Under the pieces are notes generated by a model. That model was not told the origin of the DNA, did not search any database, and saw nothing but the letters and a program-made list of their open reading frames with translations. Below, piece after piece: positions 41,678-58,693 of a stretch of DNA of 64,000 bases (its first letter is position 1; each line of letters starts with the position of its first letter). A program made the position numbers and the translations under genes. This stretch comes from an uncultured virus (IMG/VR IMGVR_UViG_3300011361_000001) (lineage: Duplodnaviria > Heunggongvirae > Uroviricota > Caudoviricetes). The stretch is taken from IMG/VR virus record IMGVR_UViG_3300011361_000001, positions 62,001 through 126,000 of that record. One strand, written 5' to 3'.

Positions 41678-41720
41678 GTCATAAAAGGTCACCTAAGGAG
41701 GCCGAAGCCTCCTTAGTGAC
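41678..41720 (-). terminator. Terminator of the radical SAM cluster
   Basis: On the - strand: gtcactaaggaggc-ttcg-gcctccttaggtgac followed by ctttt. Confidence 0.75.
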
Positions 41721-42825: not shown

Positions 42826-43255
42826 TGACACGCTCCAACCCTTCAGCGGTACATTCCAACCGGAAGTACTCAGCCGACATCGGTGCCCAACCCCCATCGA
42901 TCCAATTTGGCATCTTAGCAAGTTCTGCCAGAATGGCTTCGTAGGTGTCAGGGTCTTGGCTGTAGATCACAAAGAAATCATCGTGACCTAAAAACAGATC
43001 CGAGTCATCCAAGCTTTCACGCAACGGGATGCCGTATTCCTTTTCCAACAAGGTGGCGTAGATGATAGCCACAGCGTAGCTCTTAGCCGGATACACCAGC
43101 GGGAACTCAGCCTTACGGAAATAGTTCAAGGCGTTCTGAACCAGTTCTTCTTTGCGTACCCAGTCCATGTTCTCGAAGTCGTCAGCGTGTTCACGTACGA
43201 GCTCGTGGTATAGACGTTGGTACAGTTTGTAGTCGTGTTCAACAGGTGTGTTCAT
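42818..43255 (-). CDS. Hypothetical accessory protein of the radical SAM cluster
   Basis: 145 aa, overlaps both neighbouring genes. Confidence 0.7.
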   Translation of the reverse strand: MNTPVEHDYKLYQRLYHELVREHADDFENMDWVRKEELVQNALNYFRKAEFPLVYPAKSYAVAIIYATLLEKEYGIPLRESLDDSDLFLGHDDFFVIYSQDPDTYEAILAELAKMPNWIDGGWAPMSAEYFRLECTAEGLERVNG

Positions 43256-44337: not shown

Positions 44338-45355
44338 GCTCGACCCCCACCATACAGTCTTTGATGCTCAGACGCTCCATAAGGCTCGTGATGCCCTTCT
44401 CGTTGCAACTGCTAAGATACACACAGTTCATGCACTGCGTGCCTTCTAGGTGCTCCAGAGAGCTTTGCTGGGCCTTTGTACGGATAGTTAACAAGTGCTC
44501 CATCGTCCACGGGCGAGGAATCTCGAAAAACGGGTCGATAAAGGCGCAGTCGTCTTTCAAGAACGGCACCCAATACAACTTACCATCCGTATAGAGCAGG
44601 TTCATCATGGTCCCGGTGTCATAACACAGATCCGGGTTCTGTCGACGCTCATCCTCCCCTTCCAACTCTTTGTAGAAGTCAGAGATCAGATAAGACATCC
44701 GGCGCATCGTTTGACCGAGCAGCAGGTCTTTAACTTCTTTACGGCCATACGGGATGTTCAAGATGTCATCTTTGTCGACAGGGAACTCTACATCCAATCC
44801 ATTGATCAGATTCTCGATGTAGTGCTCGTTCATGGTCTCGGTGGTACAGTTGACCACAAAGCCTGCTTCATTTAAGTACGCCGACTTAAACGCCGCTTGT
44901 GCATGGCGCATGCGGTGTACTATGCCGTCTGAGAACTTGGTGTTACGAAAGTAGTCAGGAGCGGCCGGGATCAAAAACCGAATGCGTTGCCCTGGAGCGG
45001 CTGCATCCACTTCCGCACACATCTCATCGTACAACTCCAGACGTTTCTCAAGCATCGCCATCTGAAGAGTGAACTGATGGAACATGTGAATGATTTCGCG
45101 TACCACCGGATCACGCAACACTTGGTAGGCGTTGGTGGACGACATGGTGTCGGTTGCCCCAAGACCTAAGTCAAAGGCTACGTACCCTGCCTGGACCATC
45201 TCTTTGAGCAACGCCAGAATCTCTGGCATGTCAGCAAGGTTGCCACCGATCTCACGGTTGACCATACAACCGCTACAATGGTGGTTACACCCCTCGTACA
45301 GATCGAGGGTGATCTCTAGGCGTTGACGATGGGGAACTATCATAGCTCGCTCCAT
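44321..45355 (-). CDS. Atypical radical SAM/SPASM-like protein
   Basis: CNHHCSGC triad, no GGE motif (GLGATD instead), C-terminal CMNCVYLSSC...C. Confidence 0.7.
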   Translation of the reverse strand: MERAMIVPHRQRLEITLDLYEGCNHHCSGCMVNREIGGNLADMPEILALLKEMVQAGYVAFDLGLGATDTMSSTNAYQVLRDPVVREIIHMFHQFTLQMAMLEKRLELYDEMCAEVDAAAPGQRIRFLIPAAPDYFRNTKFSDGIVHRMRHAQAAFKSAYLNEAGFVVNCTTETMNEHYIENLINGLDVEFPVDKDDILNIPYGRKEVKDLLLGQTMRRMSYLISDFYKELEGEDERRQNPDLCYDTGTMMNLLYTDGKLYWVPFLKDDCAFIDPFFEIPRPWTMEHLLTIRTKAQQSSLEHLEGTQCMNCVYLSSCNEKGITSLMERLSIKDCMVGVEHGSVV

Positions 45356-46266
45356 TTAACAATGAGGTTGTGAAATCCATTACAGGATTCGTTTAGATCC
45401 ACCACAGGTCGCAAGTGTTCAGAGAGACAACTGCCGAAGTAGTTACACTTACCACAGACGGGGTTGTGACTGACGCGTTGCTTTTCAGACTGACACCATT
45501 TCACGTACCCGGCGATCCCTTGAACGGGGAGAAAGTATTCACGGTCCTGGTCATCAAACTCTAAGACGGCGAACTCAGCTTTGGGTGTGATATACAGGTG
45601 GTCATCACTGAAGGCGTTACGGGTCCCTGCCAAGACATCTTGCAAAAGGAACTCGTTCTCCACCTCGAAGCTGCGATCCGGGTGAGTCAATACACCGTAG
45701 ACAAAGTTTTCAAACTCGCTGAAGGTGACGGTGTCAGCGTTGGCTTGGTTAGTGCTATAGGGTTTGAACTCCACCCCATACATTTGTCCCAACAGGTTAA
45801 ACGTCTGCACACACTCGTCCACACTGACGGTATCGAGTAGTTTGCGACTGACCAGCGTCAGCACTCGGTATTCACGAGGCAAGGTGAGCATGTTTTCAAA
45901 GACTTTATCAGCCTTCTCGCGTGCCCCGAAGTCATACGAAACCGACAACGTGATGTCAGGGTCCAGTGCGGTTTCATTGACCAACGACAGGTTCGTATTG
46001 ATGTTGATGTCGGTACAACCGGCCTCACGCACCAAGGCTAACAAGTTCTCTCGATACCGTTGCGGGAGTAGCAACACCTCACCCCCGTAGATGTCGACAT
46101 GTTCGATCCTGTAGTGTTCAGAGATCTCAGCCAGCATCACCTTCAACCGGTCCAACGACAACAGGGTGACATCGCTCAGTTGCTGCTCTGTCAGGTAACA
46201 GAAGCTGCACCGGAAGTTGCAGTAGTACACCGGATTCAGAGAGAGGGTGATACTGGGCTTGCTCAT
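45340..46266 (-). CDS. Radical SAM protein with C-terminal Cys cluster
   Basis: CNFRCSFC, YGGE, TNLS, and CGKCNYFGSCLSEH...C. Confidence 0.9.
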   Translation of the reverse strand: MSKPSITLSLNPVYYCNFRCSFCYLTEQQLSDVTLLSLDRLKVMLAEISEHYRIEHVDIYGGEVLLLPQRYRENLLALVREAGCTDININTNLSLVNETALDPDITLSVSYDFGAREKADKVFENMLTLPREYRVLTLVSRKLLDTVSVDECVQTFNLLGQMYGVEFKPYSTNQANADTVTFSEFENFVYGVLTHPDRSFEVENEFLLQDVLAGTRNAFSDDHLYITPKAEFAVLEFDDQDREYFLPVQGIAGYVKWCQSEKQRVSHNPVCGKCNYFGSCLSEHLRPVVDLNESCNGFHNLIVKWSEL

Positions 46267-46270: not shown

Positions 46271-47380
46271 CTATCCTTTAAAAATCAACTGCAGACTTTC
46301 ATCCACATACGGCGTAGGTTCTAAGATCCCCTCCATACCGTTCATGCGAATGATGGCTGGGGCGTTGGCTTTCATAGCACGACAGTGTTGTTCCACAAGA
46401 CCCAAACGTTTGGTATCGGCAATAGTCTTTTTGCAACCATTACATAACTCAAACATCGGACAGGTGTAACAGGAGTTTTTCAAACTGTCTAACTCAAACT
46501 GCTGAAGTGGGGTGAAGAACTCGCCCGCCATCTCACGTTTGAAGTCGATCGCGTTCTGCTGATCATCCCCGAAGTGACCACAGCTGTAGTAACCACCCCC
46601 AGGCTGCAAAGTGCGGATACCCGAATCACAATCACGCGAAGTCGGACAGGTTGTAGAGTGACCTTGGAGTTTCTTTGCCACCTGTTTGGTGTTGTACTCC
46701 CACTGCATCAAGCCGGCTTCAAAGATCTCCACGTAGTGACTATACATCTCTCCACGGGTGTACAGTTTGTCTGCGTTACCCATGGTTACACCACCGACCA
46801 CGACTTCTTCACCTGAGGCATTGGCGTAGTTGAGTTTACACTCCACCCCTAAACGCTGAGCCAGACGCACTGTGTCTAACACCGTGTGGGCGTTCGTGTG
46901 ATCGATCACCGCAATGAAGTCAGGCCGGTACCCTACGTGTTCGAGCATGGCATCACTGCAGGCAATGAAGTCTTCCTCAGTAAAGACTGAGCCGTCCCCT
47001 TTGCGTCGGCCGTCTCCGTATTGAAACGAGGTCGTGACCCCAACCCGAGGGTGATTGAACAAACCTTTCCACAACTCAGGCTTTTTGTAGAAGGGCCAGA
47101 GGTTGGTCGTAAAGCTGATACTGGCCTCAGAACCCAACTCATCTAACAACGCAATCAGGTCCCAGTAAAACTGAGGAGGCATCATCAGCGGATCACCACC
47201 GTTTAAGATGATGGTCTGGGTTTCAGGAAAGCGTTTGATGAATTGACGAATTTCATCTAACTGTACACGGTCCTTAGGATCTTCGGACAGGTACGTACTG
47301 GAGCAGAAGGTGCACCGAAAATTGCAAGAACTCGTTGGTTTCAATATGAGATCGATTTTAGTTCTCCTTAAATTTGGCAA
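46271..47380 (-). CDS. Radical SAM/SPASM protein
   Basis: KPTSSCNFRCTFC, GGDPL, TTNL, and SPASM-like C...C...YSC...CYTC..FELCNGC...C. TTG start with a GAGGA RBS. Confidence 0.9.
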   Translation of the reverse strand: MPNLRRTKIDLILKPTSSCNFRCTFCSSTYLSEDPKDRVQLDEIRQFIKRFPETQTIILNGGDPLMMPPQFYWDLIALLDELGSEASISFTTNLWPFYKKPELWKGLFNHPRVGVTTSFQYGDGRRKGDGSVFTEEDFIACSDAMLEHVGYRPDFIAVIDHTNAHTVLDTVRLAQRLGVECKLNYANASGEEVVVGGVTMGNADKLYTRGEMYSHYVEIFEAGLMQWEYNTKQVAKKLQGHSTTCPTSRDCDSGIRTLQPGGGYYSCGHFGDDQQNAIDFKREMAGEFFTPLQQFELDSLKNSCYTCPMFELCNGCKKTIADTKRLGLVEQHCRAMKANAPAIIRMNGMEGILEPTPYVDESLQLIFKG

Positions 47381-47402: not shown

Positions 47403-47630
47403 CTACTCTTCTACCTTCATGATTTCATTCGGTGCTACCCAAAAAGGCTCGGTCCCTTCAACAGACTTAGAGACTTGATAGGCGTAGAGGGCTTTGTCAT
47501 TGACCTGGGTGATGTAGAGCACGTCAGCACGTTGGGCGTGGACACGGGTTTTACCTTTCACGCCTGCTAAACTCTCAGACGTGATTTCATATAGGGCGTA
47601 AACTTTGTCACCAACTTTAAGGGGGAACAT
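47403..47630 (-). CDS. Small hypothetical protein
   Basis: GGAGG RBS before ATG 47630. The LKVGDKVY...FWV sequence has an SH3/KOW-like look. Confidence 0.6.
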   Translation of the reverse strand: MFPLKVGDKVYALYEITSESLAGVKGKTRVHAQRADVLYITQVNDKALYAYQVSKSVEGTEPFWVAPNEIMKVEE

Positions 47631-47711
47631 GGCAACCTCCATAGGTTTATTTATATCATCGCGCATAGGCGTAATAAATGACCGTCAGGGTTTTACCCCC
47701 GACGGCCTAGG

Positions 47712-48710
47712 TTACAAAATAGCTTTGAACATCGCTTTGATCTGACACTCGCCTGCAGTGTCCTCAACGAAGCTGTGGTGCAAGAAACACCGTAACCCGC
47801 ACCGTTGATAGTACTCGCAGGAGAAACAGCCGTAGTGGTCCAGGAAACGCTCCTCAGCCGCATTCTTCGCCTGCAGCCCCAACTGTTCGTCCAAGATGGC
47901 ATCTTTACCGGCTTCTGACCAACACGTCGAGACCACACCGTCTTTGTTGACGATCTTGGTTGAACGGCACGTCGTGATGTTCTCCTGATTCTCTTTCCAC
48001 GCAATCAGTGGATGAGAGTTCGGGTGATGTTCGTTCAGGTACAGGTAGAGTTGACCGATCAGGTCTTCAGAGGGTTGGATGCGTTCGTAGTTGACACTTG
48101 GGATGTAGTGATCAAAGTACACCGAGAAATTTGCACACAAGAACGTTAAGCGTTCAGCCTCTCGTCCTGACATGATGGTCTCGATGTTCTGTTTGGTGAT
48201 CACCACGTTTACGGTGTCCACGTACTCTTGTACTTGCAGCAGGTTGCGGAAGAACAGCTCACGTTCCTCGTACGTAAACCGACCCGCCGGGTCATACGAG
48301 GTGGCGATCTTAACCTTGCCGTGGAAGCTCAACGCTTTGACCAGATGTTTCAGACGGTTGGCGTTGCGATACACCAAGTTAGCCCCAAACACAATCGTGA
48401 CGTCATCGTAGTAACTGAACAGCTTACGGGCGATGCTGTAGTAGACGTCGATCTGTGAGTTAGGAAACTCATCCAAGAACAACTCACCCCCTGTGATGTT
48501 CACCACGTAAGGGTCTTTGGGGTTGGTGTTGGCCATCAGGGTTTCAACCTTTTCCCACATGGCGTCCACATTTAGCCCCACTTTGGAGTCGTGGTCTTGG
48601 TGGCAGAAACTGCAACGCAGGTTACAGTACTCAAAGAGAATCAGATGAGCTTCTTTCAACTCCCCTTTCTTGTCAGCCAACAAATCGACCAACGGAATCA
48701 ATCCAGCCAT
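47712..48710 (-). CDS. Radical SAM/SPASM protein
   Basis: CNLRCSFC, TGGE, SYDP.GRF, and C...STC...CFSCEYYQRC..RC...C. Confidence 0.9.
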   Translation of the reverse strand: MAGLIPLVDLLADKKGELKEAHLILFEYCNLRCSFCHQDHDSKVGLNVDAMWEKVETLMANTNPKDPYVVNITGGELFLDEFPNSQIDVYYSIARKLFSYYDDVTIVFGANLVYRNANRLKHLVKALSFHGKVKIATSYDPAGRFTYEERELFFRNLLQVQEYVDTVNVVITKQNIETIMSGREAERLTFLCANFSVYFDHYIPSVNYERIQPSEDLIGQLYLYLNEHHPNSHPLIAWKENQENITTCRSTKIVNKDGVVSTCWSEAGKDAILDEQLGLQAKNAAEERFLDHYGCFSCEYYQRCGLRCFLHHSFVEDTAGECQIKAMFKAIL

Positions 48711-49768
48711 TTTGCACCTACTCCTGCTTTGACGAACGCTTCAAGCGGTGCGTTGATTACAAACCGCAACAGGTTGTCGTCGTACTTTCCAATGTCACGT
48801 TGGGAAACCCGAACCATCTTTGGACCGTGGTCGAAGAACCGATGGAGCAGTTCAAAGAGGGTCGCCTTGTCCTCCACTACAAACCCGTTCAAGTAGACTT
48901 CATGGATACTCTCCATGTAGGCCACAATGCTCAAGTCGTTGTTGTGACGGAGCAAGAACAACATCTCACCGATCATCTCAGCGAGCCACTCCACCGGGAA
49001 GCGATCGTTGATGTTAGACAGCATCACGAAGTCGGCGTTGTTCAAGTACTTAAAGTTGTAGCACCCCTGAAACACAGTGTCCTCATTTAAGAGGGTGTCA
49101 AGGTCGGCCCCAATCAATTTCCACTGATCAGGATTGCTCATAAAGGTCGACAAATACCCCATGGTGTCGGGTACGTTAGTCAACAACACACGGTCAATCA
49201 AACGCCGCAACCGTAGACCGGTTGATCCCATCGGTTGACCTAACCGCACCCCTAGAACGTCCCACTCAAACGAACGGACGATCCTTTCCTTACAGATCCA
49301 TCGACTAAGGACCGTAACCAACCAATCACAGTGCGCCTCGTCAAAGGCTGCTTGGACTTTGGGACCTGTAATCGTCACCGGGTTAATGTGACTGGTGCGC
49401 TCGCGCATGGTGGTTGTGGTGCGACAGTTGAGAATGCTTTTCTTGCACAGAAACAGATAACGGAACGTTTCATAGTCAACACCTGGCATATAAGCGAAGA
49501 CCAAAGCGGCCCACAACCGAATGTAGGTCGCTTCGTCTGCGTACAGATACGCCTCGTCTTTCCACGCCAGTTGTTCGAGCAGTTCTTCAAAGCCTGTGAC
49601 TCCAAGCTCATCTAACGACTCACTGACGCAGATCGGACTGATTGCGCTCTCGTTCCCTTCCAACACCAGAAAAGGCATCCCCATCTGTTTAGAGACCACC
49701 GCCCGATTGGCTTCATCATCGATCTCTCGATCGACTTCAACGTACAGGCTATTAAACAGATGGAACAT
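48698..49768 (-). CDS. Hypothetical accessory protein of the radical SAM cluster
   Basis: 356 aa, tightly coupled to its neighbours. Confidence 0.75.
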   Translation of the reverse strand: MFHLFNSLYVEVDREIDDEANRAVVSKQMGMPFLVLEGNESAISPICVSESLDELGVTGFEELLEQLAWKDEAYLYADEATYIRLWAALVFAYMPGVDYETFRYLFLCKKSILNCRTTTTMRERTSHINPVTITGPKVQAAFDEAHCDWLVTVLSRWICKERIVRSFEWDVLGVRLGQPMGSTGLRLRRLIDRVLLTNVPDTMGYLSTFMSNPDQWKLIGADLDTLLNEDTVFQGCYNFKYLNNADFVMLSNINDRFPVEWLAEMIGEMLFLLRHNNDLSIVAYMESIHEVYLNGFVVEDKATLFELLHRFFDHGPKMVRVSQRDIGKYDDNLLRFVINAPLEAFVKAGVGAKWLD

Positions 49769-49771: not shown

Positions 49772-50479
49772 TTAGTTTCCTTCCAACAACGCCGGGAGCG
49801 CCGCATCGTGGGCTTGGACGATTTGGGCAAATTCCGGTTGGAACTCAGGGAAGTACAAAGTACCTGCTGAAATGAACAACACGTTGTCAGGCGACTCGAA
49901 GTAGTGATACAGGTTCTTACCTGCAAACACACGCTCCTCGAACCAGTGCTTGCTGTAGCGCAATGGGCGCTCTTTAGCAAAGTACAACGCCATCCCTGGG
50001 TGAGTCAGACAGTGCACCCAGTTCAATCCTGAGGCCGATTCATCCACACCCGGCCACGCCGCTTCATCAAGCTGTAGGTGATCGCCTGCAACGCAGCGAG
50101 CAGCAAACAAGGGACAGCAATCCAAACGCTCAGCCCAAAGATCCAACGCCGCCCCGTGAGTTTCGAAGAACACCTGCGGATCAAACGGTACAGACCCCGG
50201 CATGCCTTCACGGATCAACAACAGGTTGACGACAATCCCAACCAAAGATTCTTGACGGTACATCACAGGCAACTTCAGGTAAGCTGCTGTCAATTCCATC
50301 AATGCCTCTTCACCTGCAACCAAGAGATCCACCTCAAGCTTCAGGTTACTCAGGTATGTCAGAAAGGCCAGACCTTTGAACTTGGATTCGTTGTACTGAA
50401 TCTCAAAGTGGAGGTCTTCTGTGAATTTGCGCTTGAGTTCGAGCACCGGGATGGGAGCCGGGGTAGTGATGACTTGCAT
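49772..50479 (-). CDS. Hypothetical accessory protein of the radical SAM cluster
   Basis: 235 aa, AGGAG RBS. Confidence 0.75.
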   Translation of the reverse strand: MQVITTPAPIPVLELKRKFTEDLHFEIQYNESKFKGLAFLTYLSNLKLEVDLLVAGEEALMELTAAYLKLPVMYRQESLVGIVVNLLLIREGMPGSVPFDPQVFFETHGAALDLWAERLDCCPLFAARCVAGDHLQLDEAAWPGVDESASGLNWVHCLTHPGMALYFAKERPLRYSKHWFEERVFAGKNLYHYFESPDNVLFISAGTLYFPEFQPEFAQIVQAHDAALPALLEGN

Positions 50480-50493
50480 AAGGGGAACTCCTG

Positions 50494-51108
50494 TTAACGG
50501 CGGCCGCGGTTGCTGTGGCAGTCGGAGTGGCAGTTACTGTGACAGAACGTTTTGGTGATCCGCAGCGTCTGGTTACTGAGGTTTACGATGTTGGCGTAAA
50601 CACGTTCGCAGTAGTTGATCAACTCACCACGACTTACCACCTGACCGGCTGAAGGCGGCCACGCCGCACGGTTATCGACTCCGTGTAAATAGGGATCAAC
50701 GTAATCGCCTGCTGACCAACCACCGGCGCTACTGTTGGCGTTTGCTACAGCCGCTTGAGTCCGAGTCAACGCAACGCTGCTGGTCAGTCGAGTGATACCT
50801 GTGGTGTTTTGACGAACCGACAGACTTCCACCACTGTTGTAGTAGGACAAGAACTGGATGGATCGTACCCGTGCCCAGTTACGACCGTAGGCTGCGATGT
50901 TAGCCACTACCGCCTCGGCATTCACAGGACCTGCCGGCAACCAGCTTGCAGCAAAACCGCCGGTGACAATACCGGTGTTACCACCGTAGTTCGGGTCACC
51001 AAAGTCGCTTGGGTAGTTGTTGTTACCGTAAGAGACACGACTGTCCAAACGGTCGCGTAGATACGCGGTGATGATGTTGGCAATATCCTGCCGTGTAATA
51101 TCAGCCAT
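50494..51108 (-). CDS. Putative modification substrate with C-terminal CXXX repeat
   Basis: 204 aa, G/N/S/A-rich, ends in FCHSNCHSDCHSNRGRR. Confidence 0.7.
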   Translation of the reverse strand: MADITRQDIANIITAYLRDRLDSRVSYGNNNYPSDFGDPNYGGNTGIVTGGFAASWLPAGPVNAEAVVANIAAYGRNWARVRSIQFLSYYNSGGSLSVRQNTTGITRLTSSVALTRTQAAVANANSSAGGWSAGDYVDPYLHGVDNRAAWPPSAGQVVSRGELINYCERVYANIVNLSNQTLRITKTFCHSNCHSDCHSNRGRR

Positions 51109-51113
51109 GTCGT

Positions 51114-52157
51114 TTATGCCTTGAATATCAGGTTGGGGTCGTACGGGTTAGGTCGACCACTTAAATAGCGTAGCGTGTTCTTAAGGCCCGCACAGCGGTA
51201 GCCTTGCCAAGACAAGCGATGGCAGTCGCCACCACACAAGTCAAACACGTCGCAACGAATGCACAACTCAGAGAAGTCTAACTCCCGTACGATCTGATCG
51301 ACACGACCCTCTGAGGCAAGGTAGTTTTGGACAGGTTGGTGAATGTTGCCGTGGTTGTGCTCACTGGCCACATTAGGACAACCGCCTAAGGTCCCGTTGG
51401 AATTGATGGTGGTGAGGTTCTGCTCACAGTTCCGACAGTTGGTGTCCACAGCGACCATGTTGTACTGGATCTTCTCGATCAAGATGTCTAAGGTTTTGAT
51501 GTGGGCTGAATACTGACCGGTCTGGTACAATTTAAGTAACGCCAAGTACCAGTTGTCTTGCGCCTCGTTGTCAGGAAACACGTGTTCGTTACGCAGCGCA
51601 TTGCCGCCTACGGTCAAGCGTTCCAAGGAGACATCACGAACCGGTAAGGCTGAGACCTGCTCTAAGAACCATTCAGGACTCTGTTCCACCATTTGTCTGG
51701 ATACCGACACCTTCAACCCTAACTCAACACCCTGGTCGGTTAAGTACTGAAGGTTTTTACGCCACAGACTTTGTTGCTCACCAGTTTCCCACCGAATCCA
51801 GGGGTCCCAGCTGGTACCTATTGAACCGCCTAGTTGGTTCTGGATGAAACTGAGTAGACGAGGATGGATGGTGAACGTCAAATTACTGTTGGCAGACATC
51901 GACACCAAGTCATCGCCTTCGAAGTGCGCCGCAAAGCGCTCTAATAGCTCGATAGGGACGAGGAACGGTTCACCGCCATGCAACTCTAGGTGCGTGTGTG
52001 TACCGGGCTCAAACGTCGCCCTAAGGCCTTTGATCCAACTGGCTGTCGCATCGGGGTCAAAGCGTGTAGTGTCTCCATTGCGTCCGCTGGTAAAACAGTG
52101 ACTACAATTGAGGTTACACGACCCCGTGGTTTTGACATAGATCGTTTTGACCGTCAT
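51114..52157 (-). CDS. Radical SAM/SPASM protein
   Basis: KTTGSCNLNCSHC, HGGEP, and SPASM-like CRNC...GGC...CIRC..FDLCGGDC...C. Confidence 0.9.
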   Translation of the reverse strand: MTVKTIYVKTTGSCNLNCSHCFTSGRNGDTTRFDPDATASWIKGLRATFEPGTHTHLELHGGEPFLVPIELLERFAAHFEGDDLVSMSANSNLTFTIHPRLLSFIQNQLGGSIGTSWDPWIRWETGEQQSLWRKNLQYLTDQGVELGLKVSVSRQMVEQSPEWFLEQVSALPVRDVSLERLTVGGNALRNEHVFPDNEAQDNWYLALLKLYQTGQYSAHIKTLDILIEKIQYNMVAVDTNCRNCEQNLTTINSNGTLGGCPNVASEHNHGNIHQPVQNYLASEGRVDQIVRELDFSELCIRCDVFDLCGGDCHRLSWQGYRCAGLKNTLRYLSGRPNPYDPNLIFKA

Positions 52158-52660
52158 AGCTTCTCAACCATCCACTTCTCAAAGCCTAGGCTGACCATGA
52201 TGGACGCTTTCTCATTCACAGCGTAGTGTTTCACATTCGCCGGCATGTAAAGCGTATCACCCGCCTTTAGATGGTGACTGATACCGTCCACCACCATGGT
52301 TTTCTCGCCATCGATTACACAGACCAAGACATGATCAGGATCTGTGTGTTCGTTGAATGTGTAACCCCCTGCTGGCGCTATAAAGACGTGGGCAGATACC
52401 GGTCCGTAGTGTTTGTAGGCGTTAGCTTGTAGCTTACACCATTCCCATACTCCACGGTCGAAGGTTTCGAAGTGCTCCAGTTTGATGGTGGTGTTACGAC
52501 CCATCAATGAGGTGGAGTTCTGAAACGCGTTCACAACGTTAGGTTCTGCGATCACATGGACAATCTGTTGCTCACGGGCGTAGTCAGAACTGATACACAG
52601 ATCAAAGTACTGATTAGCTTTGGCGCAGATCTCTCTATAACTCAGCATGAGGATACTCAC
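52154..52660 (-). CDS. JmjC/cupin-fold Fe(II)-dependent oxygenase
   Basis: HTD...V.V....G.K...L.AGD.LY.PA...H (HxD...H). Start at GTG 52660 or ATG 52648. Confidence 0.8.
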   Translation of the reverse strand: MSILMLSYREICAKANQYFDLCISSDYAREQQIVHVIAEPNVVNAFQNSTSLMGRNTTIKLEHFETFDRGVWEWCKLQANAYKHYGPVSAHVFIAPAGGYTFNEHTDPDHVLVCVIDGEKTMVVDGISHHLKAGDTLYMPANVKHYAVNEKASIMVSLGFEKWMVEKL

Positions 52661-52661
52661 T

Positions 52662-53456
52662 TTAAAGGTTAGTGGCGTTGATCTCCGATTTCAGCTCGTC
52701 GATCTCTGCACGCAAGTTGGCAAGTACTTTATCGGCGTAGCTACGATGTACCAACTGTTCCAGACGAATCGGGACCAGATCGCCTTCCGGTTTCTCAGCC
52801 ACAGGGCGTTCACGAGAACCAAAGGTACAACCGCGCATTCCGCTCAGTAACACTATTTGGAAATCGTTACGAGCCGCATCCCCACACCAGATCTCGGTAT
52901 GGATCATGTCTTCTATCTTAACGCGACGATAGAAGAACTCTGTGGTGTAACGACCACTCATCACGTTGATCACAGGCGCCCGGCCTTCACGACCAATACG
53001 CATGTAGGCAACCGGACGTTCGGCCATGAACCCGTAAGGACCGCCCCCTACAAACGCAAACAACAGGTCGTCGTTAACTGCGTGTTTTTTACCCAGTGTG
53101 CTGGTGGAGTTCTCAGGGATACTTACCAGACGAGACCAACCCCCTTTACTGAAGGGAATCATGACGTAGGGGTGACTGAGTTCCCGAATCCGGTTTTTGA
53201 CATCGGTCAGGATGTCTTCAACGGTCAATCCGTTCAGGCGATCGGCATCGAGTATTCGACTATCCATATCGCGAATCTTGTTGAGCAACTCTTCCAACGA
53301 GACGCCATCTAACAACGTTGCATTACGAGCAAAGGCATTTTTAGCCAAGTACTCAAGCAAACCTTCGAAGGTGTGTCCATTGAAACGTTCTGCGTTTTGA
53401 GCCGTGTCAAAGACACCCAACTTGTCTTCTAAGCTCATAGTCTTGCTCTGGTCCAT
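52662..53456 (-). CDS. Tail-fibre-related protein
   Basis: Three (N/D)A..(L/F).G..+E.+ repeats. C-domain paralogous to 53474 and to the end of 56192. Confidence 0.6.
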   Translation of the reverse strand: MDQSKTMSLEDKLGVFDTAQNAERFNGHTFEGLLEYLAKNAFARNATLLDGVSLEELLNKIRDMDSRILDADRLNGLTVEDILTDVKNRIRELSHPYVMIPFSKGGWSRLVSIPENSTSTLGKKHAVNDDLLFAFVGGGPYGFMAERPVAYMRIGREGRAPVINVMSGRYTTEFFYRRVKIEDMIHTEIWCGDAARNDFQIVLLSGMRGCTFGSRERPVAEKPEGDLVPIRLEQLVHRSYADKVLANLRAEIDELKSEINATNL

Positions 53457-53473
53457 ATTTCTTTACCTCGGGA

Positions 53474-54232
53474 TTAAGTCCGGCGATTGAGTAGAGTTTC
53501 TTTGAGCGCTTTAAGCTCTTCTTGCAAAGGCGTGACAGACTCAATGAACGTTTCGGTGGTGATGGCTTCGTCGCACACAATGGGAAACAGTGTATCGATG
53601 GGAGGGACTTCTCCATCAAACTGACAAGGACCGTAGGTGTGTGCACGGGTCGAGTTCAAGCACGCCATGTGTAACGTGTCTCGACGCTCTGCCGTGTGCC
53701 AAATCTCCAAGAAGATGACATCGTTCTCAGAACGACTGCGGCTGTAGAACTGACCGTTGATCTGACCAGCTAACGCCAACGCCAATGAAGGACGTCCTTG
53801 GGCACCTACACGCAACATCACCAGAGGTTGTTCGCCCTCTGAACCACCACCCATCAAACCAAAGACAAAATCTTCGCGATCAGGTTGAATTTCAACAGTG
53901 ACCAGAAGTGTCCACGGATTAGTAGTTGGGGTGAAGAACGTCGGTTGGAAGGTACGGGTTTCAACCAACTGGTTCAACTGTGCTTTGAGTTCACTGACAG
54001 TCAGGCCACCAAACTTGTCAACCTCTTCTGCGTACACTTTGGCTTGTTGGGCTATGGCATAAAAGTCATCCAACCCAAACCCGCCGAGGCTCTTGACCTC
54101 ATGGACGCGCCCTTCGCTTTCAACAAAGGCATACAGCTCATCCAAGGTACGACCTTGTAGCAGTTGGGTGTCGTTCGCTGTCCCGTCACGGTCCAGTTTC
54201 GTGGCTAATTGTTCAGGGGTGATTTCAGACAT
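53474..54232 (-). CDS. Tail-fibre-related protein (paralogue of 52662)
   Basis: Same repeats and W..LV...F.F..GG...+R+G...FY.R...EIW domain. Confidence 0.6.
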   Translation of the reverse strand: MSEITPEQLATKLDRDGTANDTQLLQGRTLDELYAFVESEGRVHEVKSLGGFGLDDFYAIAQQAKVYAEEVDKFGGLTVSELKAQLNQLVETRTFQPTFFTPTTNPWTLLVTVEIQPDREDFVFGLMGGGSEGEQPLVMLRVGAQGRPSLALALAGQINGQFYSRSRSENDVIFLEIWHTAERRDTLHMACLNSTRAHTYGPCQFDGEVPPIDTLFPIVCDEAITTETFIESVTPLQEELKALKETLLNRRT

Positions 54233-54311
54233 GGTGTTAATCCCACAGGACAAAATAAAGAAAGAAACAAGTATGGGCTGTTAACCCATACCTGATTCTT
54301 CGAGGTTTACA

Positions 54312-56135
54312 TCAGGACCACTGAGCCGGCCAAACTTGACGCCAAGCACCACCACCCCAGATATACACGCCCGTTCCGTTCCAGTGAACGCTGCAATCAA
54401 AACCTGCGGCGTTCTTAGGTGCGTATCGTGCATCGTGGTCTGCGGAGTTTACGTGGTCGAACATTCCCTTGGCTGTCAGCAACGAAGCGTCGGTGTTAGA
54501 ACCACGCGAGCTTGTGATCGAGTTAGGAATGGTACTCAAGCCCACCTGGGCCTTCGTGACGCCATGAGGGTTGTCAGAGCGACTGATGTGTGCGTTCATC
54601 GGGACCACAGCCAAGGTGTTGATGGCCTGTCCTGTACGCAACGGTGTCATATATGTACCGTTATCTGTCGCTGCTTCTGCCAACGCTTGGGTTGCCACCG
54701 TGTAGTTCAACACGTTCCCGAGGCCCACTTGTGCTTTCGTCACCCCGTGAGGGTTGTCGGCACGTGCGATGTGAGCGTTCAGAGGTGTCAACGCTTGGGT
54801 GAAGATGGCCTGAGAACTGCGCAGCGGTGTCATGAAGCGAGTGTTGACCGTGCCTGCACGGGCTTCTGCTTCAGTAGCGGTTGCGTAGTTATCAACATCT
54901 CCCAATCCAACTTGGGCTTTGGTGGTAGCATGTGGGTTGTCCACACGATCCACGTGAGCCTTAAGCGGAACCAACGCTTGGGTGTCAATCGCTTGTGCGG
55001 TCTTCAAAGCCGTCATGTACAGCGAGTCACTGGTGCCGACACGGGCCTGTGCTTCAGTGGCCACGCCATAGTTCAGAACACTACCAAGACCTACCTGTGC
55101 TTTAGTCACTGCGTGCGGGTTGTCCGTACGAGCAGTGTGAGCATTGAGGGGTTTGATGGCGTGTTCATCGATGGCTTGCTTGGTCAGCAACGGAGTTACG
55201 TACAACGAAGGCGACGTCCCTGCAATCATGTCCGCTTGCGAGGCCACGTTGTAGTTAGCGACTAACCCCAAACCAACCTGTGCCTTAGTGACACCATGCG
55301 GGTTATCCGTACGGGCAATGTGGGCGTTCAGTGGTTTGATGGCATGTTCGTTGATCGCATCACGTACCCGTACAGGCGTCGTGTACAACGCGTTACTGGT
55401 AGCGGCTACCATGTCAGCGGTGGTTGCAACACCGTAGTTCTCAACGCTGCCTAACCCAACCTGCGCCTTAGTGGTGCCGTGTGGGTTGGTTTTGTCTTGA
55501 ACGTGTGTGGCCAAGTTCTGACGGTTTTCAGCAATGCTTTCACGCAACAGTCCGTCTTCGTAACGAATCCACTGACGCATTTCTTCGTGGACGGCTTCGT
55601 CACCAATCAGGATCGCATGACGCAATGCTTCCAGCGCTTCTGTCACATACTCGAAACCATAAAGGTCGCCGATGTCGTGTAGGTGAGGTGCTGGTGGATA
55701 CGCACTGGGTCGCGCGATGATGTCGCCCCAGCTAACGGTACGCTCGTCCAAGTCTTCGTCTTCGATGGCTTGGCGCAAAGCGTCCACCGACACACTGAAG
55801 TCACCACCAACCGTTTGATATTCAAGGGTAACCTTGCCCATCACGTTCTGGTCGATGATCACCACCGCCATGCAAACCTCACGGTTCAACGAGGCAGTGG
55901 CATCAGCGTGAAGTTGTGCTGCGATGTAGTGCTGGTTAGGTACAAGAGGTTCGACTTGGTCTTCGACCCAGACCACAAGCGATTCACTGTAGAAGGCGCT
56001 GTAGTGTGGAACGATCGCTCGGTTGACTCCGGTACCCAGGTCGTGCTCTTCCCCAACAATGCGGTTGTTAGGGTTGACGGCCGTGGGGTCAATGGGGTAC
56101 TTAAGAATAAGCCCCCGCGTCAAGGTTGAGGACAT
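54312..56135 (-). CDS. Tail fibre protein with NPH repeats
   Basis: Six NPH..TKAQVGL units spaced about 61 aa apart. N-terminal YP.DPT...N....E.H domain. Confidence 0.8.
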   Translation of the reverse strand: MSSTLTRGLILKYPIDPTAVNPNNRIVGEEHDLGTGVNRAIVPHYSAFYSESLVVWVEDQVEPLVPNQHYIAAQLHADATASLNREVCMAVVIIDQNVMGKVTLEYQTVGGDFSVSVDALRQAIEDEDLDERTVSWGDIIARPSAYPPAPHLHDIGDLYGFEYVTEALEALRHAILIGDEAVHEEMRQWIRYEDGLLRESIAENRQNLATHVQDKTNPHGTTKAQVGLGSVENYGVATTADMVAATSNALYTTPVRVRDAINEHAIKPLNAHIARTDNPHGVTKAQVGLGLVANYNVASQADMIAGTSPSLYVTPLLTKQAIDEHAIKPLNAHTARTDNPHAVTKAQVGLGSVLNYGVATEAQARVGTSDSLYMTALKTAQAIDTQALVPLKAHVDRVDNPHATTKAQVGLGDVDNYATATEAEARAGTVNTRFMTPLRSSQAIFTQALTPLNAHIARADNPHGVTKAQVGLGNVLNYTVATQALAEAATDNGTYMTPLRTGQAINTLAVVPMNAHISRSDNPHGVTKAQVGLSTIPNSITSSRGSNTDASLLTAKGMFDHVNSADHDARYAPKNAAGFDCSVHWNGTGVYIWGGGAWRQVWPAQWS

Positions 56136-56191
56136 ACGGTTTTACTCCGAGTTAGGGTGAGGTGGGTAAGACCCCACCCCTAGAAGGTTGA

Positions 56192-58693
56192 TCATTCAGG
56201 TACAGGACCGGTGGCGTCGATCGCTTCTTGGCGCATCTCTTCTGCAAAGGCATCGAGGCGTGCTTCAAGCATGACGTTATCGATCAAGGTGACCTTAGTG
56301 GGGGTAATGGCAGGCTCTTCAGCCGTTTCTTCATCCCACTGGCTCCAATCCGGTTCTGCTTCGAAGGTTTCACCGGAGAACTCGAACGCAGTATTGTTAG
56401 TGGCGCTGACCAACATGCAGTGAATGTCACCACGCATCCGATCACCACTTTCCAACCACACCTCCAAGTTCTCGCCTACATTCTTGATGTACAGAACATG
56501 GCCACCATCTTCACCGGTGATCACAACCTGCTTGGCTTCACGGTACGCGCCGTTTGAACCGTCAGCATCAACGAACTTAAGCAACGACGTGCTGCTACGG
56601 GCGTCATCTTGTTCATGTAACGAGATCACCGCCTCAAAGCGAGTTTCACGTGTGGTGAACAAACGTGTCCACGCACGCAGTTCCGAGTTCTCGGATTCAT
56701 AGCCTGGATATTTGACGCTCACCGGGCTGTGGACTTTTGCCAAAATGCCGCTTTCAATGTCGCTGTAAGACTTACCTTCCAAACGTGTCGCTAGAGGCGC
56801 GATATGAGTGGTATAGATGTCTTGTAGTTCAGGTACCGTGTAGCCACCGAAACGTTCAGTGTTTTCCGCTTCCCCGCCCGACACTGCCGCCATGATCTGT
56901 TCGTAGGAATACCCGTTGAGCAAAGCAGAGTCACTGGCCTTACTACCGTTGGTCATATAACCCAACAGTTTGGTTTCCAGCGCAGTAGTTGTTACCGCGC
57001 CCAACTGAGCAGCCGTGACCTGGTGTGGGTTATCGGTGCGTTCGCTGTGTTGTTGCAACAGGTTACGTGCAGCACTTTGCGCTACCTGCCACGAAGTCAC
57101 AGGCGTCATGTAAAGCTCAGACGAGGTACCTTCCAAAGCTTCGACTTGACTGGCAACACCGTAGTTCTCAACGTTACCCAGCCCCACTTGCACTTTCGTG
57201 ACCGCGTGTGGGTTATCCGTACGGCCTACGTGACTGCCTACTGAATCCCCAACGATGTTCTCAAGCATGGCCTGAGTCGTAGCAGGGGTCATAAAGCGGT
57301 TAGTGGCAGTACCCGCTACCGCTTCTGCACGTGTGGCAGTTGGGTAGTTGTCAACGTTGTTCAAACCCACCTGAGCTTTGGTTGTCCCGTGAGGGTTGTT
57401 ACCATCGTTGGTGTGAGCACGATACGAAGCCAGTGCCACTTCTTCAATCGCTAGACGAACACCCTTAGGCGTGGTATAGAGGTTGTCAGCAGTACCTGCG
57501 ACCATCTGGGCATCAGTTGCAATGCCATAGTTCAACACGTTGCCCAAACCGACTTGTGCTTTGGACACTCGGTGTGGGTTGTTCAGGTCAGAGATGTGGT
57601 TATTCATCCCTTCACCGACGTACTGGCTCACCATCTGGTAAGTCGACAGCGGTGTCATATAGCGGTCGTTACGGCTACCGGCTACTGCTTCTGCCTGAGA
57701 GGCCAGAGGCAAGTTTTCAACGTTCCCTAAACCGACTTGTGCTTTGGTCGTGCCATGCGGGTTATCAATGCGGCTGGTGTGTGCCGAGATAACAGGAACG
57801 ATGTTGGCATCAAGCGAGGCTTTGAGCCCGACAGGTGTCAGGTAAAGAACGTTGGAGGTACCGGCTGCAGCTTGTTCAGGCGAGGCAATACCGAAGTTTT
57901 GCACACTCCCCAAACCGACTTGCGTTTTAGTAACCCCGTGAGGGTTATCGTTACGCAGGGTGTGACCTTCCAGCAAAGGAGTCACGTAAGCTTCAACGAA
58001 GTTACGCACTCGAACAGGTGTCATGTACAGCGCATTGCTCGAACCGGCTACGGCTTCTGCAATGTTGGCCATCGGGTAGTTTTCAACCAACCCCAGACCG
58101 ATTTGAACTTTGTTAACACGGTGCGGGTTGTTGTAGTCCGCGACGTGTGAGGTACCGTTGGCATCGTTGGCGGCGTTGATCGCTTCTGTGATGCCGTTCA
58201 GTTTCGCAACGATATCTTTAGCGCCAGTCAGATCATCCAAGTTCCATTGGTGGTCAATGACCGGGAACTGGAAAGGTAGATCCACAACTTGTTCCCACGT
58301 GGTAATACGTGGGTTCATCAGCCGGTTGGACATCAGCTCGAGAACAGTGTTCTCATCATACACCCAATCGCCACCGATGGTCTGGTAACGAAGTTCAACC
58401 ACACCCGTCAGGCTGCGGTCTAAGTAGGTGATCGAGCCGTATACAGGACGACCAACACCGTGCGATGCTGCGTGGAACCAATGCGTGAGGTGGTAATCCA
58501 CCCCTTCGACCAAATCGCGACCCATACCGAGATGGCGAATACGCAGGTTGTTGCGGAAGAACGGTGCAAAGGTTGGGACTATGAAATTGAATTCACGGTC
58601 AGTTACCCCAGACAGCACATGCCGTTCATTAGGGATCACGTTGGAAGTCAACGAGCCCGTCGGGTCGAATGGATAAACGTAGGTCTGCGACAT
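56192..58693 (-). CDS. Tail fibre protein with NPH repeats
   Basis: Seven NPH...Q(V/I/L)G units. N-terminal YPFDPTG....N.I..E.H domain. Confidence 0.8.
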   Translation of the reverse strand: MSQTYVYPFDPTGSLTSNVIPNERHVLSGVTDREFNFIVPTFAPFFRNNLRIRHLGMGRDLVEGVDYHLTHWFHAASHGVGRPVYGSITYLDRSLTGVVELRYQTIGGDWVYDENTVLELMSNRLMNPRITTWEQVVDLPFQFPVIDHQWNLDDLTGAKDIVAKLNGITEAINAANDANGTSHVADYNNPHRVNKVQIGLGLVENYPMANIAEAVAGSSNALYMTPVRVRNFVEAYVTPLLEGHTLRNDNPHGVTKTQVGLGSVQNFGIASPEQAAAGTSNVLYLTPVGLKASLDANIVPVISAHTSRIDNPHGTTKAQVGLGNVENLPLASQAEAVAGSRNDRYMTPLSTYQMVSQYVGEGMNNHISDLNNPHRVSKAQVGLGNVLNYGIATDAQMVAGTADNLYTTPKGVRLAIEEVALASYRAHTNDGNNPHGTTKAQVGLNNVDNYPTATRAEAVAGTATNRFMTPATTQAMLENIVGDSVGSHVGRTDNPHAVTKVQVGLGNVENYGVASQVEALEGTSSELYMTPVTSWQVAQSAARNLLQQHSERTDNPHQVTAAQLGAVTTTALETKLLGYMTNGSKASDSALLNGYSYEQIMAAVSGGEAENTERFGGYTVPELQDIYTTHIAPLATRLEGKSYSDIESGILAKVHSPVSVKYPGYESENSELRAWTRLFTTRETRFEAVISLHEQDDARSSTSLLKFVDADGSNGAYREAKQVVITGEDGGHVLYIKNVGENLEVWLESGDRMRGDIHCMLVSATNNTAFEFSGETFEAEPDWSQWDEETAEEPAITPTKVTLIDNVMLEARLDAFAEEMRQEAIDATGPVPE

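What the first reader, a model, noticed from the sequence alone, without database searches (positions are those of the whole stretch)
50494..51108. Candidate substrate with terminal CHSN-CHSD-CHSN-RGRR repeat
Seen: a 204-aa non-enzyme-looking protein directly downstream of the first radical SAM gene, ending in three CHSx units (50509-50544) plus RGRR. The units use varied codons, implying protein-level selection rather than a recent DNA duplication. Known: CXXX-repeat and His-Xaa-Ser-repeat peptides are predicted radical SAM targets in bacteria. Inference: this is the core region, carried on an unusually large, virion-like body instead of a short leader. Candidate modifications are Cys thioether cross-links and His/Asp/Asn hydroxylation.
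Basis: partly seen in the sequence, partly recalled or inferred. Interest (0 to 1): 0.85.

Follow-up and report, generated by a model that had tools for sequence, protein, structure and literature searches.

The report
Cys-His-tailed virion protein and its maturases
A small jumbo-phage protein ending in three Cys-His-x-Ser/Asn units plus RGRR always sits right behind a radical SAM enzyme gene, was detected in particles of a related phage, and is probably a tail-fibre part whose tip is chemically tailored by an unstudied enzyme set.

Summary
ORF 50494-51108(-) encodes 204 aa ending FCHSNCHSDCHSNRGRR, with varied codons, 5 nt downstream of a radical SAM/SPASM gene.

The tail is the hallmark of a phage protein family. 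Of 103 relatives, 76 end in at least three C-H-x-x units followed directly by RxRR, and the only invariant alignment columns lie in the tail.

All 81 viral loci and all 4 genome-collection loci examined carry radical SAM genes. In 79 of 81 one ends within 80 nt of the family gene's start. The conserved cassette is cupin - rSAM - tail protein - two unknown proteins - more rSAMs - 2OG oxygenases, usually beside tail-fibre genes.

The Agrobacterium phage Atu_ph07 homologue (gp170) is in the published virion proteome, most abundant in the top gel band. Two relatives carry a tail-fibre chaperone domain.

Best reading: a virion fibre-type protein whose C-terminal tail is the substrate of the enzymes. 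No modification has been shown and the chemistry is inferred. My searches found no paper describing the cassette; other reports of this scan had already noted it elsewhere.

The parts
50494..51108 (-). CHS204: 204-aa family protein; folded alpha/beta body plus flexible C-terminal tail
   Evidence: AF2 mean pLDDT 85.8, pTM 0.79; the last two 10-residue blocks fall to pLDDT 55 and 51. No PDB fold match.
50497..50544 (-). Tail: CHSN-CHSD-CHSN (50509-50544) plus RGRR (50497-50508)
   Evidence: Family logo C-H-x-[S/N] x3 then R-G-R-R.
51114..52157 (-). rF: radical SAM/SPASM enzyme directly upstream of CHS204
   Evidence: CX3CX2C at residue 14 and CX2CX5CX3C at 299. SPASM model TIGR04085 scores 31 bits against a cut-off of 27. 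This type ends within 80 nt of the family gene's start in 79 of 81 loci.
52154..52660 (-). Cupin/JmjC-type probable Fe(II)/2OG oxygenase
   Evidence: Pfam Cupin_2 43.2 bits and JmjC_2 38 bits. Co-varies with the RxRR end.
49772..50479 (-). p235: conserved unknown protein directly downstream of CHS204
   Evidence: phrog_20767. Found in 72 of 81 loci. AF2 pLDDT 93.3, no known fold.
48698..49768 (-). p356: conserved unknown protein
   Evidence: Found in 62 of 81 loci. No PDB sequence match. Not related to rF by hhalign.
47712..48710 (-). rE: radical SAM/SPASM enzyme
   Evidence: Present only where the tail ends in RxRR (44/44 against 0/9).
47403..47666 (-). p87: small ORF inside the cassette
   Evidence: Homologue in only 4 of 81 loci.
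46271..47380 (-). rD: radical SAM enzyme, core partner of rF
   Evidence: Pfam Radical_SAM 43.3 bits. Present in all 53 loci with full flanks.
45340..46266 (-). rC: radical SAM enzyme
44321..45355 (-). rB: radical SAM enzyme
   Evidence: phrog_31457. CX3CX2C at residue 23.
43252..44337 (-). rA: radical SAM enzyme
   Evidence: phrog_31457. CX3CX2C at residue 17.
41720..42921 (-). Two 2OG-Fe(II) oxygenase genes (41720-42274 and 42265-42921)
   Evidence: phrog_81. Homologues in 47 of 81 loci.
52662..58693 (-). Upstream neighbours: two unknown paralogues (264 and 259 aa) and two tail-fibre-like proteins (607 and 833 aa)
   Evidence: phrog_2163, 13857, 11029 and others: tail and virion.

Best explanation
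CHS204 is a virion-associated, probably trimeric fibre-type protein of a phiKZ-like jumbo phage. Its flexible, nearly invariant C-terminal tail, (C-H-x-S/N)x3-RGRR, is the substrate of the co-encoded radical SAM/SPASM enzymes. The core set is rF, rD and the two unknown proteins p235 and p356, and it acts on the Cys-His units. Most likely it makes side-chain cross-links at the beta-carbon of the fourth residue, either His-to-C-beta cyclophanes or Cys thioethers, possibly between chains. The accessory set is the JmjC-type cupin with rE and rC, and in some lineages rB, rA and 2OG oxygenases. It acts on, or depends on, the RGRR end. The body is not a leader that gets discarded; it carries the tailored tip into the particle. 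Shown: motif conservation, gene linkage, co-variation, and virion presence of one homologue. Inferred: that the tail is modified, the chemistry, the trimer, and the role in the tail.
For: (1) Linkage. All 81 viral loci with a family gene hold radical SAM genes. In 79 of 81 an rF-type gene ends within 80 nt of the family gene's start; the other two loci (L039, L058) begin about 20-100 nt before the gene. All 4 loci found among 185,579 species genomes have 4-7 radical SAM hits.
(2) Gene order is conserved across phiKZ-like, T4-like and Rak2-like phages.
(3) The only invariant columns among 61 diverse members (mean column identity 21%) are M1 and tail residues C189, H190, C193, H198, R201, R203 and R204.
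(4) The fourth residue of each unit is S, N, A, D or Q and never Gly in 76 tails x 3 units. The third residue is free and often Gly. This fits a reaction at a beta-carbon.
(5) rF has the CX3CX2C motif and a complete, invariant SPASM cysteine set. It passes the SPASM domain cut-off.
(6) Co-variation in 53 loci with full flanks. RxRR tails go with the cupin (43/44 against 0/9), rE (44/44 against 0/9) and rC (43/44 against 1/9). rF, rD and p235 are in all 53. On the rF tree the tail type changes 3 times, and 0 of 200 bootstrap trees need only one change.
(7) Virion. Atu_ph07 gp170 is family member P0101, with a computed mass of 31.89 kDa equal to the table's value. It is in the published virion ESI-MS/MS list with 8 unique peptides, 35.16% coverage, bands 1-9, most abundant in band 1. 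Its radical SAM and p235-like neighbours gp165-169, 171 and 172 are not listed (supplement of PMC6102473).
(8) Two family members carry Pfam Peptidase_S74, the chaperone of trimeric fibres, 5-10 residues after the CH units.
(9) In 9 of 11 diverse loci the genes just upstream are tail-fibre, baseplate or giant structural genes.
(10) Precedents. The 214-aa HxsA protein with HxS repeats is matured by radical SAM enzymes (section 9 of PMC13128918). His-C2 to C-beta cross-links are made on H-x-x motifs by radical SAM triceptide synthases (passages of PMC11499958).
Against: No mass or structural datum shows any modification of any family member. Every match of the six enzymes to characterised maturases is far below the curated cut-off (for rF: anSME 41.6 against 349, DynA 39.1 against 450, PapB 38.2 against 340, YhhB 36.6 against 445), so the chemistry cannot be read from homology. 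Six radical SAM enzymes plus three oxygenases are many for a 16-residue tail, so other substrates or a small-molecule product may exist. Close relatives P0008-P0010 have degenerate second and third units (CYKAPH, CYTAPH), and L011 has CNCN as its last unit. The RefSeq record of Ralstonia phage RSL2 labels the homologue ORF068 'hypothetical protein' while two neighbours are labelled virion structural proteins; I did not see that phage's proteomics paper. The virion evidence rests on one phage with PEG-purified particles. Running in band 1 could also be aggregation.
Confidence: 0.6

Rival explanations
1. The tail is a metal-binding site (Zn, Fe or Cu) at the tip or axis of a trimeric fibre and needs no covalent modification. 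The radical SAM enzymes act on something else in the fibre module.
For: The tail offers three Cys and three His at period 4, and AF2 draws residues 191-201 as a helix, though at low confidence. The protein is in virions and two relatives carry a trimer chaperone domain. From recall: His-lined metal sites occur on the axes of T4 gp37, T4 gp12 and P2-type spike tips.
Against: It does not explain the gene-to-gene coupling with rF in 79 of 81 loci. It does not explain why the fourth residue is conserved and never Gly. It does not explain why tail type co-varies with enzyme content. Metal binding and cross-linking could also both be true.
Confidence: 0.15
2. CHS204 is an accessory of the enzymes, not their substrate. 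It could be a scaffold, an Fe-S or electron carrier, or a carrier on which a cofactor or small molecule is built. The real target would be the tail fibres, another cassette protein or a metabolite.
For: There are many enzymes for a short tail. Cys-rich ends can hold iron-sulfur clusters. p235 and p356 have no known fold, so other substrates cannot be excluded.
Against: The homologue is in the virion while the enzymes are not. The tail lacks ferredoxin-type spacing. Two relatives are built like fibre proteins, with Peptidase_S74.
Confidence: 0.1
3. Classical RiPP: the body is a long leader and the 16-residue tail is cut off and released as a small bioactive peptide.
For: SPASM radical SAM enzymes and a repeat-bearing C-terminal core resemble RiPP clusters.
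Against: I recognised no protease or exporter in the conserved cassette. A predicted beta-strand of the fold (181-189) runs straight into the tail. The body is confidently folded, and the homologue's body is found in virions.
Confidence: 0.07
4. Hxs-like function turned to the phage's own use: a matured, cationic His-rich protein that blocks DNA entry of competing phages (superinfection exclusion).
For: HxsA is a matured protein with HxS repeats that blocks phage DNA entry. The tail here is basic (RGRR) and rich in His.
Against: There is no signal peptide or peptidoglycan-binding domain and no HxsA-D match. The gene sits in the fibre module and the homologue is in the virion.
Confidence: 0.05

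Closest known systems
HXS antiphage system (HxsA matured by radical SAM HxsB/HxsC with HxsD; PMC13128918, abstract and section 9 read)
   Same: A full-size protein (214 aa), not a short peptide, carries His-x-Ser repeats. It depends on two radical SAM enzymes plus a small partner, and a modification maps to a repeat.
   Different: Hxs is bacterial, exported and peptidoglycan-anchored. Its repeats have period 3 and no Cys, and its modification is +8 Da on SHRSS. Here the repeats have period 4 with an invariant Cys, lie at the C-terminus with an RGRR end, belong to a phage virion protein and come with 2-7 enzymes. No Hxs model is matched.
Triceptide (three-residue cyclophane) synthases acting on His motifs: HaaB (HAA), HtkB (HTK), YhhB (HNR); PMC11499958, passages read
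   Same: They are radical SAM/SPASM enzymes that link an aromatic ring (His C2) to the beta-carbon of the third residue in an aromatic-x-x motif, often in several repeats. H-x-[S/N] here has a free second residue and a third residue that is never Gly. YhhB and AmcB are among rF's best weak hits.
   Different: The scores are far below the cut-offs. The substrates of those enzymes are short peptides with leaders. The invariant Cys before each His has no counterpart there.
Thioether-forming radical SAM/SPASM maturases: PapB (NCBIfam hit); QhpD acting on the protein subunit QhpC (recalled, and named in an earlier scan note)
   Same: Cys side chains are linked to the beta or gamma carbons of nearby Asp, Asn, Ser or Thr. 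From recall, QhpC is a protein subunit rather than a released peptide.
   Different: rF scores 38.2 bits against PapB's cut-off of 340. The motif here has Cys and the acceptor only three residues apart and a conserved His.
Anaerobic sulfatase maturase (anSME)
   Same: It is the best NCBIfam hit of rF and rD, though only over the SPASM part. From recall, it acts on whole proteins at a C/S-x-P/A-x-R motif, and the last unit here plus Arg reads C-H-x-[S/N]-R.
   Different: 41.6 and 44.4 bits against a cut-off of 349. The third position is G or S, not P or A. No sulfatase is involved.
Radical SAM cluster beside type IV pilus genes on Pseudomonas megaplasmids (pBT2436/pQBR family; PMC7070040, passages read)
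   Same: In the one region read (L091), an rF-like gene is followed directly by a 124-aa protein ending YCHNACHGACHGACHGSRGWR, among six radical SAM hits. The paper says the function of this association is unclear.
   Different: The plasmid protein is small, has a signal-peptide-like start and a different body. Its fourth residue is Ala. Its context is a pilus or secretion operon, not a phage tail.
Tail fibres and spikes with a C-terminal intramolecular chaperone (Pfam Peptidase_S74)
   Same: Two family members (P0026, P0062) carry this domain right after four CH units.
   Different: The window's protein has no such domain and ends in RGRR instead.

Membership tests
HXS system (HxsA/B/C/D) | Substrate matches the HxsA model | tested here: not met
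   No NCBIfam family at E<=0.01 for the window protein. 0 of 61 family members hit HxsA at E<=10.
HXS system (HxsA/B/C/D) | Enzymes reach the HxsB/HxsC equivalog cut-offs | tested here: not met
   rE: HxsB 19.2 bits (cut-off 370) and HxsC 17.9 (cut-off 267.9). rD: HxsC 28.7 (cut-off 267.9).
HXS system (HxsA/B/C/D) | HxsD partner; exported substrate with a peptidoglycan-binding domain | tested here: not met
   p235, p356 and CHS204 have no NCBIfam or Pfam match.
Radical SAM/SPASM maturases (enzyme rF) | CX3CX2C cluster motif and a SPASM domain with its cysteine set | tested here: met
   CX3CX2C at residue 14 and CX2CX5CX3C at 299. TIGR04085 31 bits against cut-off 27. Cysteines invariant in 36 rF sequences.
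Triceptides (3-residue cyclophane RiPPs) | Aromatic-x-x motif in the substrate | tested here: met
   H-x-[S/N/D] three times in the window protein. Family logo. Motif definition from PMC11499958.
Triceptides (3-residue cyclophane RiPPs) | Maturase belongs to a characterised 3-CyFE family | tested here: not met
   rF: YhhB 36.6 (cut-off 445), AmcB 34.7 (425), FxsB 25.3 (370), GrrM 22.6 (310).
Triceptides (3-residue cyclophane RiPPs) | Ring-to-C-beta cross-link present in the product | not testable with these tools
   Needs MS and NMR.
Ranthipeptides/sactipeptides | Maturase reaches a family cut-off; thioether shown | tested here: not met
   PapB 38.2 bits (cut-off 340) and StsB 19.9 (cut-off 625) for rF. 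The thioether itself is not testable here.
anSME / sulfatase maturation | Equivalog score and a C/S-x-P/A-x-R substrate motif (motif recalled) | tested here: not met
   41.6 bits against 349. The third position of the last unit is G, S, N, A, T or D, not P.
CXXX-repeat peptide system (recalled from NCBIfam/TIGRFAMs; accession not checked) | Substrate or maturase matches the curated models | tested here: inconclusive
   None of the 25 families shown for the 61 members was of this kind; 26 matched and one was not shown. None appeared among the best 25 families shown for each enzyme. The full lists were not seen.
Virion structural protein | Detected in purified particles | tested here: inconclusive
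   Homologue gp170 of Atu_ph07 is in the published virion list. The window's own phage is uncultured and has no such data.
Trimeric fibre with Peptidase_S74 chaperone | PF13884 domain at the C-terminus | tested here: not met
   Absent from the window protein. Present in family members P0026 (44.8 bits) and P0062 (39 bits).

The most novel reading that the evidence does not exclude
Large phages, and megaplasmid pili, run a RiPP-like pathway on their own extracellular appendages. A multi-enzyme radical SAM cassette staples the Cys-His units of three chains together at a fibre tip, giving an SDS-resistant, possibly metal-binding trimer. A second enzyme layer (JmjC cupin, rE, rC) tailors the RGRR end. 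The finished tip is needed for adsorption or for triggering infection. This would be the first enzymatic radical cross-linking of a virus particle protein and would probably involve new radical SAM chemistry.
Probability: 0.25. Interest if true: 0.9.

Novelty: new variant of a known kind. Interest (0 to 1): 0.75.

Why it matters
Radical SAM maturation is known for small peptides and a few cellular proteins. If the reading is right, a widespread class of large phages spends up to about 11 kb (here 41720-52660) on chemically finishing one particle protein.

That would add a new layer to how phage tails are built and recognise hosts. It would give a defined substrate for six uncharacterised radical SAM subfamilies. 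It would also tie together three unexplained observations:
- the 'highly unusual' radical SAM clusters noted in jumbo-phage genome papers;
- the radical SAM cluster beside pilus genes on Pseudomonas megaplasmids;
- the bacterial Hxs defence system.

The question is directly testable by co-expression and mass spectrometry.

Tried and rejected
- Complex prediction (rF + p235 + CHS204): the queue was full repeatedly, one accepted job failed, and the tool was then declared unavailable. No complex was predicted, and binding of CHS204 to rF or p235 stays untested.
- Fold searches with the CHS204 model: Foldseek against the PDB gave nothing at E<=0.001. VIA-align wide gave a best Z of 4.1. BFVD returned only uncharacterised phage proteins.
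- Fold searches with the p235 model: Foldseek found nothing. VIA-align gave a best Z of 4.3, over the N-terminal 55 residues only.
- PDB sequence-profile searches for p235 and p356 gave nothing below E 0.06.
- ESM Atlas look-ups for p235 and CHS204 gave only uninformative rows at 0.90 or lower.
- hhalign of the CHS family against p264 and fib607, and of p356 and p235 against rF, showed no relation. p356 is therefore not a recognisable degenerate radical SAM protein.
- megablast of the cluster, and tblastn of CHS204 and of a marine family member, against the phage collection gave no match. Cultured carriers were reached only through a closer family member and through rF.
- Ralstonia phage RP31 has radical SAM genes but no family gene in the 40 kb read, so its virion proteomics does not bear on this question.
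- Literature: ten searches found no paper that describes the tail motif or assigns a function to the cassette. Genome papers only list the genes.
- Not examined: the 332 of 521 viral pattern matches and about 600 genome pattern matches that were not confirmed as relatives. I therefore cannot say that the bare motif never occurs away from radical SAM genes.

Full report
**Observation.** The minus-strand ORF 50494-51108 encodes a 204-aa protein ending KTFCHSNCHSDCHSNRGRR. Serine uses AGT, TCC and AGC, and cysteine uses TGT, TGC and TGC, so the repeat is kept at the protein level. The gene starts 5 nt after the stop of a radical SAM gene (51114-52157) and ends 14 nt before the next gene. No other run of C-[HY]-x-x units exists in any frame of the window. 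The window is bases 62001-126000 of a complete 222,670-bp virus record with terminal repeats. That record has one copy of the gene, and its rF-type radical SAM genes lie only in this cluster. Head, helicase, polymerase and baseplate families mark it as a phiKZ-like jumbo phage.

**The neighbourhood.** One strand from 41720 to 58693 carries, in transcription order:
- two tail-fibre-like proteins (833 and 607 aa);
- two unknown paralogues (259 and 264 aa);
- a cupin/JmjC-type oxygenase;
- radical SAM rF, then CHS204;
- unknown p235 and unknown p356;
- radical SAM rE, a small ORF, and radical SAM rD, rC, rB and rA;
- two 2OG-Fe(II) oxygenases.

All six radical SAM proteins have CX3CX2C near the N-terminus and Cys-rich C-terminal parts. 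rF and rE have the canonical CX2CX5CX3C SPASM core, and rF passes the SPASM domain cut-off (31 bits against 27). Their matches to characterised maturases (anSME, DynA, PapB, YhhB, AmcB, DarE, HxsB/C) are all far below curated cut-offs.

**The family.** Close homologues (56-82% identity) keep FCHSNC...H.NRGRR. A profile search of 1.84 billion representative proteins found 94 relatives at E<=0.001, mostly 170-230 aa. The 103 proteins held divide as follows:

| C-terminal type | proteins |
|---|---|
| >=3 C-[HY]-x-x units directly followed by RxRR | 76 |
| CH repeats plus RxRR at other spacing | 9 |
| CH repeats with another end | 10 |
| RxRR only | 6 |
| neither | 2 |

In an alignment of 61 diverse members (mean column identity 21%) the only invariant columns are M1 and the tail residues C189, H190, C193, H198, R201, R203 and R204. 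The logo is [T]-[V]-C-H-[S/T]-[S/N]-C-H-x-[S/N]-C-H-[G/S]-[S/N]-R-G-R-R. The fourth residue of a unit is S, N, A, D or Q and never Gly, while the third is free.

AF2 gives a confident alpha/beta body (pLDDT 85.8, pTM 0.79) and a low-confidence tail (pLDDT 55 and 51 for the last two blocks). No solved fold matches. The only structural look-alikes are uncharacterised phage proteins.

**Linkage to radical SAM genes.** A degenerate-pattern scan of IMG/VR gave 189 confirmed relatives. The best 80 were kept as 79 loci, making 81 with two close ones.
- Every one of the 81 loci has radical SAM genes (287 hits, 282 of them with CX3CX2C).
- In 79 of 81 an rF-type gene ends within 80 nt of the family gene's start, mostly 0-7 nt away or overlapping. 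The other two loci start just before the gene.
- The order cupin - rF - CHS - p235 - p356 - rE - rD - rC - (rB - rA) - oxygenases recurs. The minimal form is rF - CHS - p235 - p356 - p356 - rD.
- Among 185,579 species genomes only 4 relatives were found, on three Bdellovibrio-type contigs and one Rhodobacteraceae contig. Each has 4-7 radical SAM hits.
- Cultured carriers are Pseudomonas phage pPa_SNUABM_DT01, the Ralstonia RSL2/RSF1 group, Burkholderia FLC6/FLC8/SURPRISE13, Agrobacterium Atu_ph07 and Sinorhizobium Phosso. In the three carriers read in detail (pPa_SNUABM_DT01, RSL2 and Atu_ph07) the family gene is annotated 'hypothetical protein'.

The unconfirmed pattern matches were not examined.

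**Two layers.** I took the 53 loci with at least 1.7 kb upstream and 8.5 kb downstream.

| Gene | tails ending RxRR | other tails |
|---|---|---|
| cupin | 43 of 44 | 0 of 9 |
| rE | 44 of 44 | 0 of 9 |
| rC | 43 of 44 | 1 of 9 |
| rF, rD, p235 | 44 of 44 | 9 of 9 |

Tails without RxRR (ending HGSI/L, GDGPG-type or GGRR) come with two radical SAM genes, except in one long-branch locus. On a careful tree of 47 distinct rF sequences (6 identical duplicates dropped) the tail type needs 3 changes. None of 200 bootstrap trees needs only one, although L024 and L077 are long branches. I read this as a core set for the Cys-His units and an accessory set tied to the RGRR end. The paralogue labels are best-hit assignments, and the number of independent events is small.

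**Virion and fibre evidence.** Family member P0101 is Atu_ph07 gp170 (100% identity). Its computed mass of 31.89 kDa equals the value in Supplementary Table S5 of PMC6102473. That table lists gp170 with 8 unique peptides and 35.16% coverage, in bands 1-9 and most abundant in band 1. Most of the other proteins whose main band is band 1 are 75-139 kDa. The radical SAM and p235-like neighbours gp165-169, 171 and 172 are not listed, while gp176 and gp177 are. A trimer would weigh 95.7 kDa.

Two family members (P0026, P0062) have four CH units, then a GD-PG linker, then Pfam Peptidase_S74, the intramolecular chaperone of trimeric fibres and spikes, starting 5-10 residues after the last unit. In 9 of 11 diverse loci the genes just upstream are fibre, baseplate or giant structural genes.

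Against this, the RSL2 RefSeq record does not label its homologue as a virion protein, and I did not see that phage's proteomics.

**Mechanism.** The shown facts are linkage, conservation, co-variation and virion presence in one relative. The inference is that the SPASM enzymes modify the tail before assembly. Two readings of the unit fit known chemistry:
- H-x-[S/N] as an aromatic-x-x motif for a His-C2 to C-beta cyclophane, as made by HaaB, HtkB and YhhB;
- C-x-x-[S/N/D] as a short thioether ring of the PapB/QhpD kind (recalled).

The absence of Gly at the fourth position fits both. The JmjC_2 match of the cupin (38 bits) recalls ribosomal-protein Arg/His hydroxylases (recalled). Together with the co-variation, this makes hydroxylation at the RGRR end a reasonable guess. 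Cross-links between chains would explain the band-1 behaviour, but so could aggregation.

**Comparison with the known.** The nearest described system is the bacterial HXS defence, in which a 214-aa protein with HxS repeats is matured by two radical SAM enzymes and a partner. Membership fails on every tested feature.

The same tail-plus-enzyme pairing also sits in a pilus/secretion operon of a Pseudomonas megaplasmid. There a 124-aa protein with a signal-like start ends YCHNACHGACHGACHGSRGWR, right after an rF-like gene. The megaplasmid paper calls this association unexplained. I read one such region only; 136 plasmid records hold an rF-like gene.

Earlier reports of this scan describe the same cassette in other genomes and reach similar readings. 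They are leads, not independent evidence. I re-derived the linkage, the virion datum, the predatory-bacteria loci and the plasmid case here.

**Verdict.** The substrate reading is well supported by comparative genomics but lacks any chemical proof. The cassette is uncharacterised in the papers I could search. It is a new variant of radical SAM protein maturation, applied to a virus particle protein.

Noticed in passing
window 54312-56135 (-) and 56192-58693 (-): Two tail-fibre-like proteins carry five to six copies of a unit of about 55-65 residues containing ...DNPH(G/A)(V/T)TKAQVGLG..V.NY. PHROG hits are split between 'virion structural' and 'tail' families.
   Followed up: partly
window 52662-53456 (-) and 53474-54253 (-): Two paralogous unknown proteins (264 and 259 aa) lie between the fibre genes and the cupin. 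They have no family match. Homologues occur in only 22-24 of 81 loci, all in the phiKZ-like group.
   Followed up: partly
L091 10124-10498 (Pseudomonas megaplasmid record NZ_MF344571.1): A 124-aa protein with a signal-peptide-like start and the C-terminus YCHNACHGACHGACHGSRGWR lies directly after an rF-like radical SAM gene. It sits in a type IV pilus/T2SS-like operon with six radical SAM hits. rF-like genes occur in 136 plasmid records, 130 of them Pseudomonas.
   Followed up: partly
L089 6062-6879: A Rhodobacteraceae-bin contig has two tandem short family genes (137 and 134 aa). Both end in (CHxS)3-RGRR.
   Followed up: no
P0038, P0097, P0095: Tail variants: eight CH units in blocks separated by NVV (P0038); a poly-Pro insert between CH units and the RSRR end (P0097); a Gly-rich end after degenerate units (P0095).
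   Followed up: no
L042 3289-6427: Two tandem tryptophan-halogenase-like genes (phrog_2928) and several 2OG oxygenases lie just upstream of the cassette in one marine-type locus.
   Followed up: no
L053 815-6928, L019 1230-7475, L020 327-6509, L025 42-5021: Giant proteins of 1,650-2,080 aa (phrog_358, unknown function), followed by a fibre-like protein (phrog_22593/19602), precede the cassette in the non-phiKZ lineages. This mirrors the giant structural protein gp180 upstream of the cassette in Atu_ph07.
   Followed up: partly
L085 (Ralstonia phage RP31, 76-87 kb of the record): A different radical SAM cluster (three weak rSAM-profile hits), with no Cys-His-tailed family gene in the 40 kb read.
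   Followed up: partly
window 54336-55265 (+): A 309-aa ORF lies antisense to the fibre gene. It is most likely a by-product of the repeat-rich, GC-balanced coding strand.
   Followed up: no
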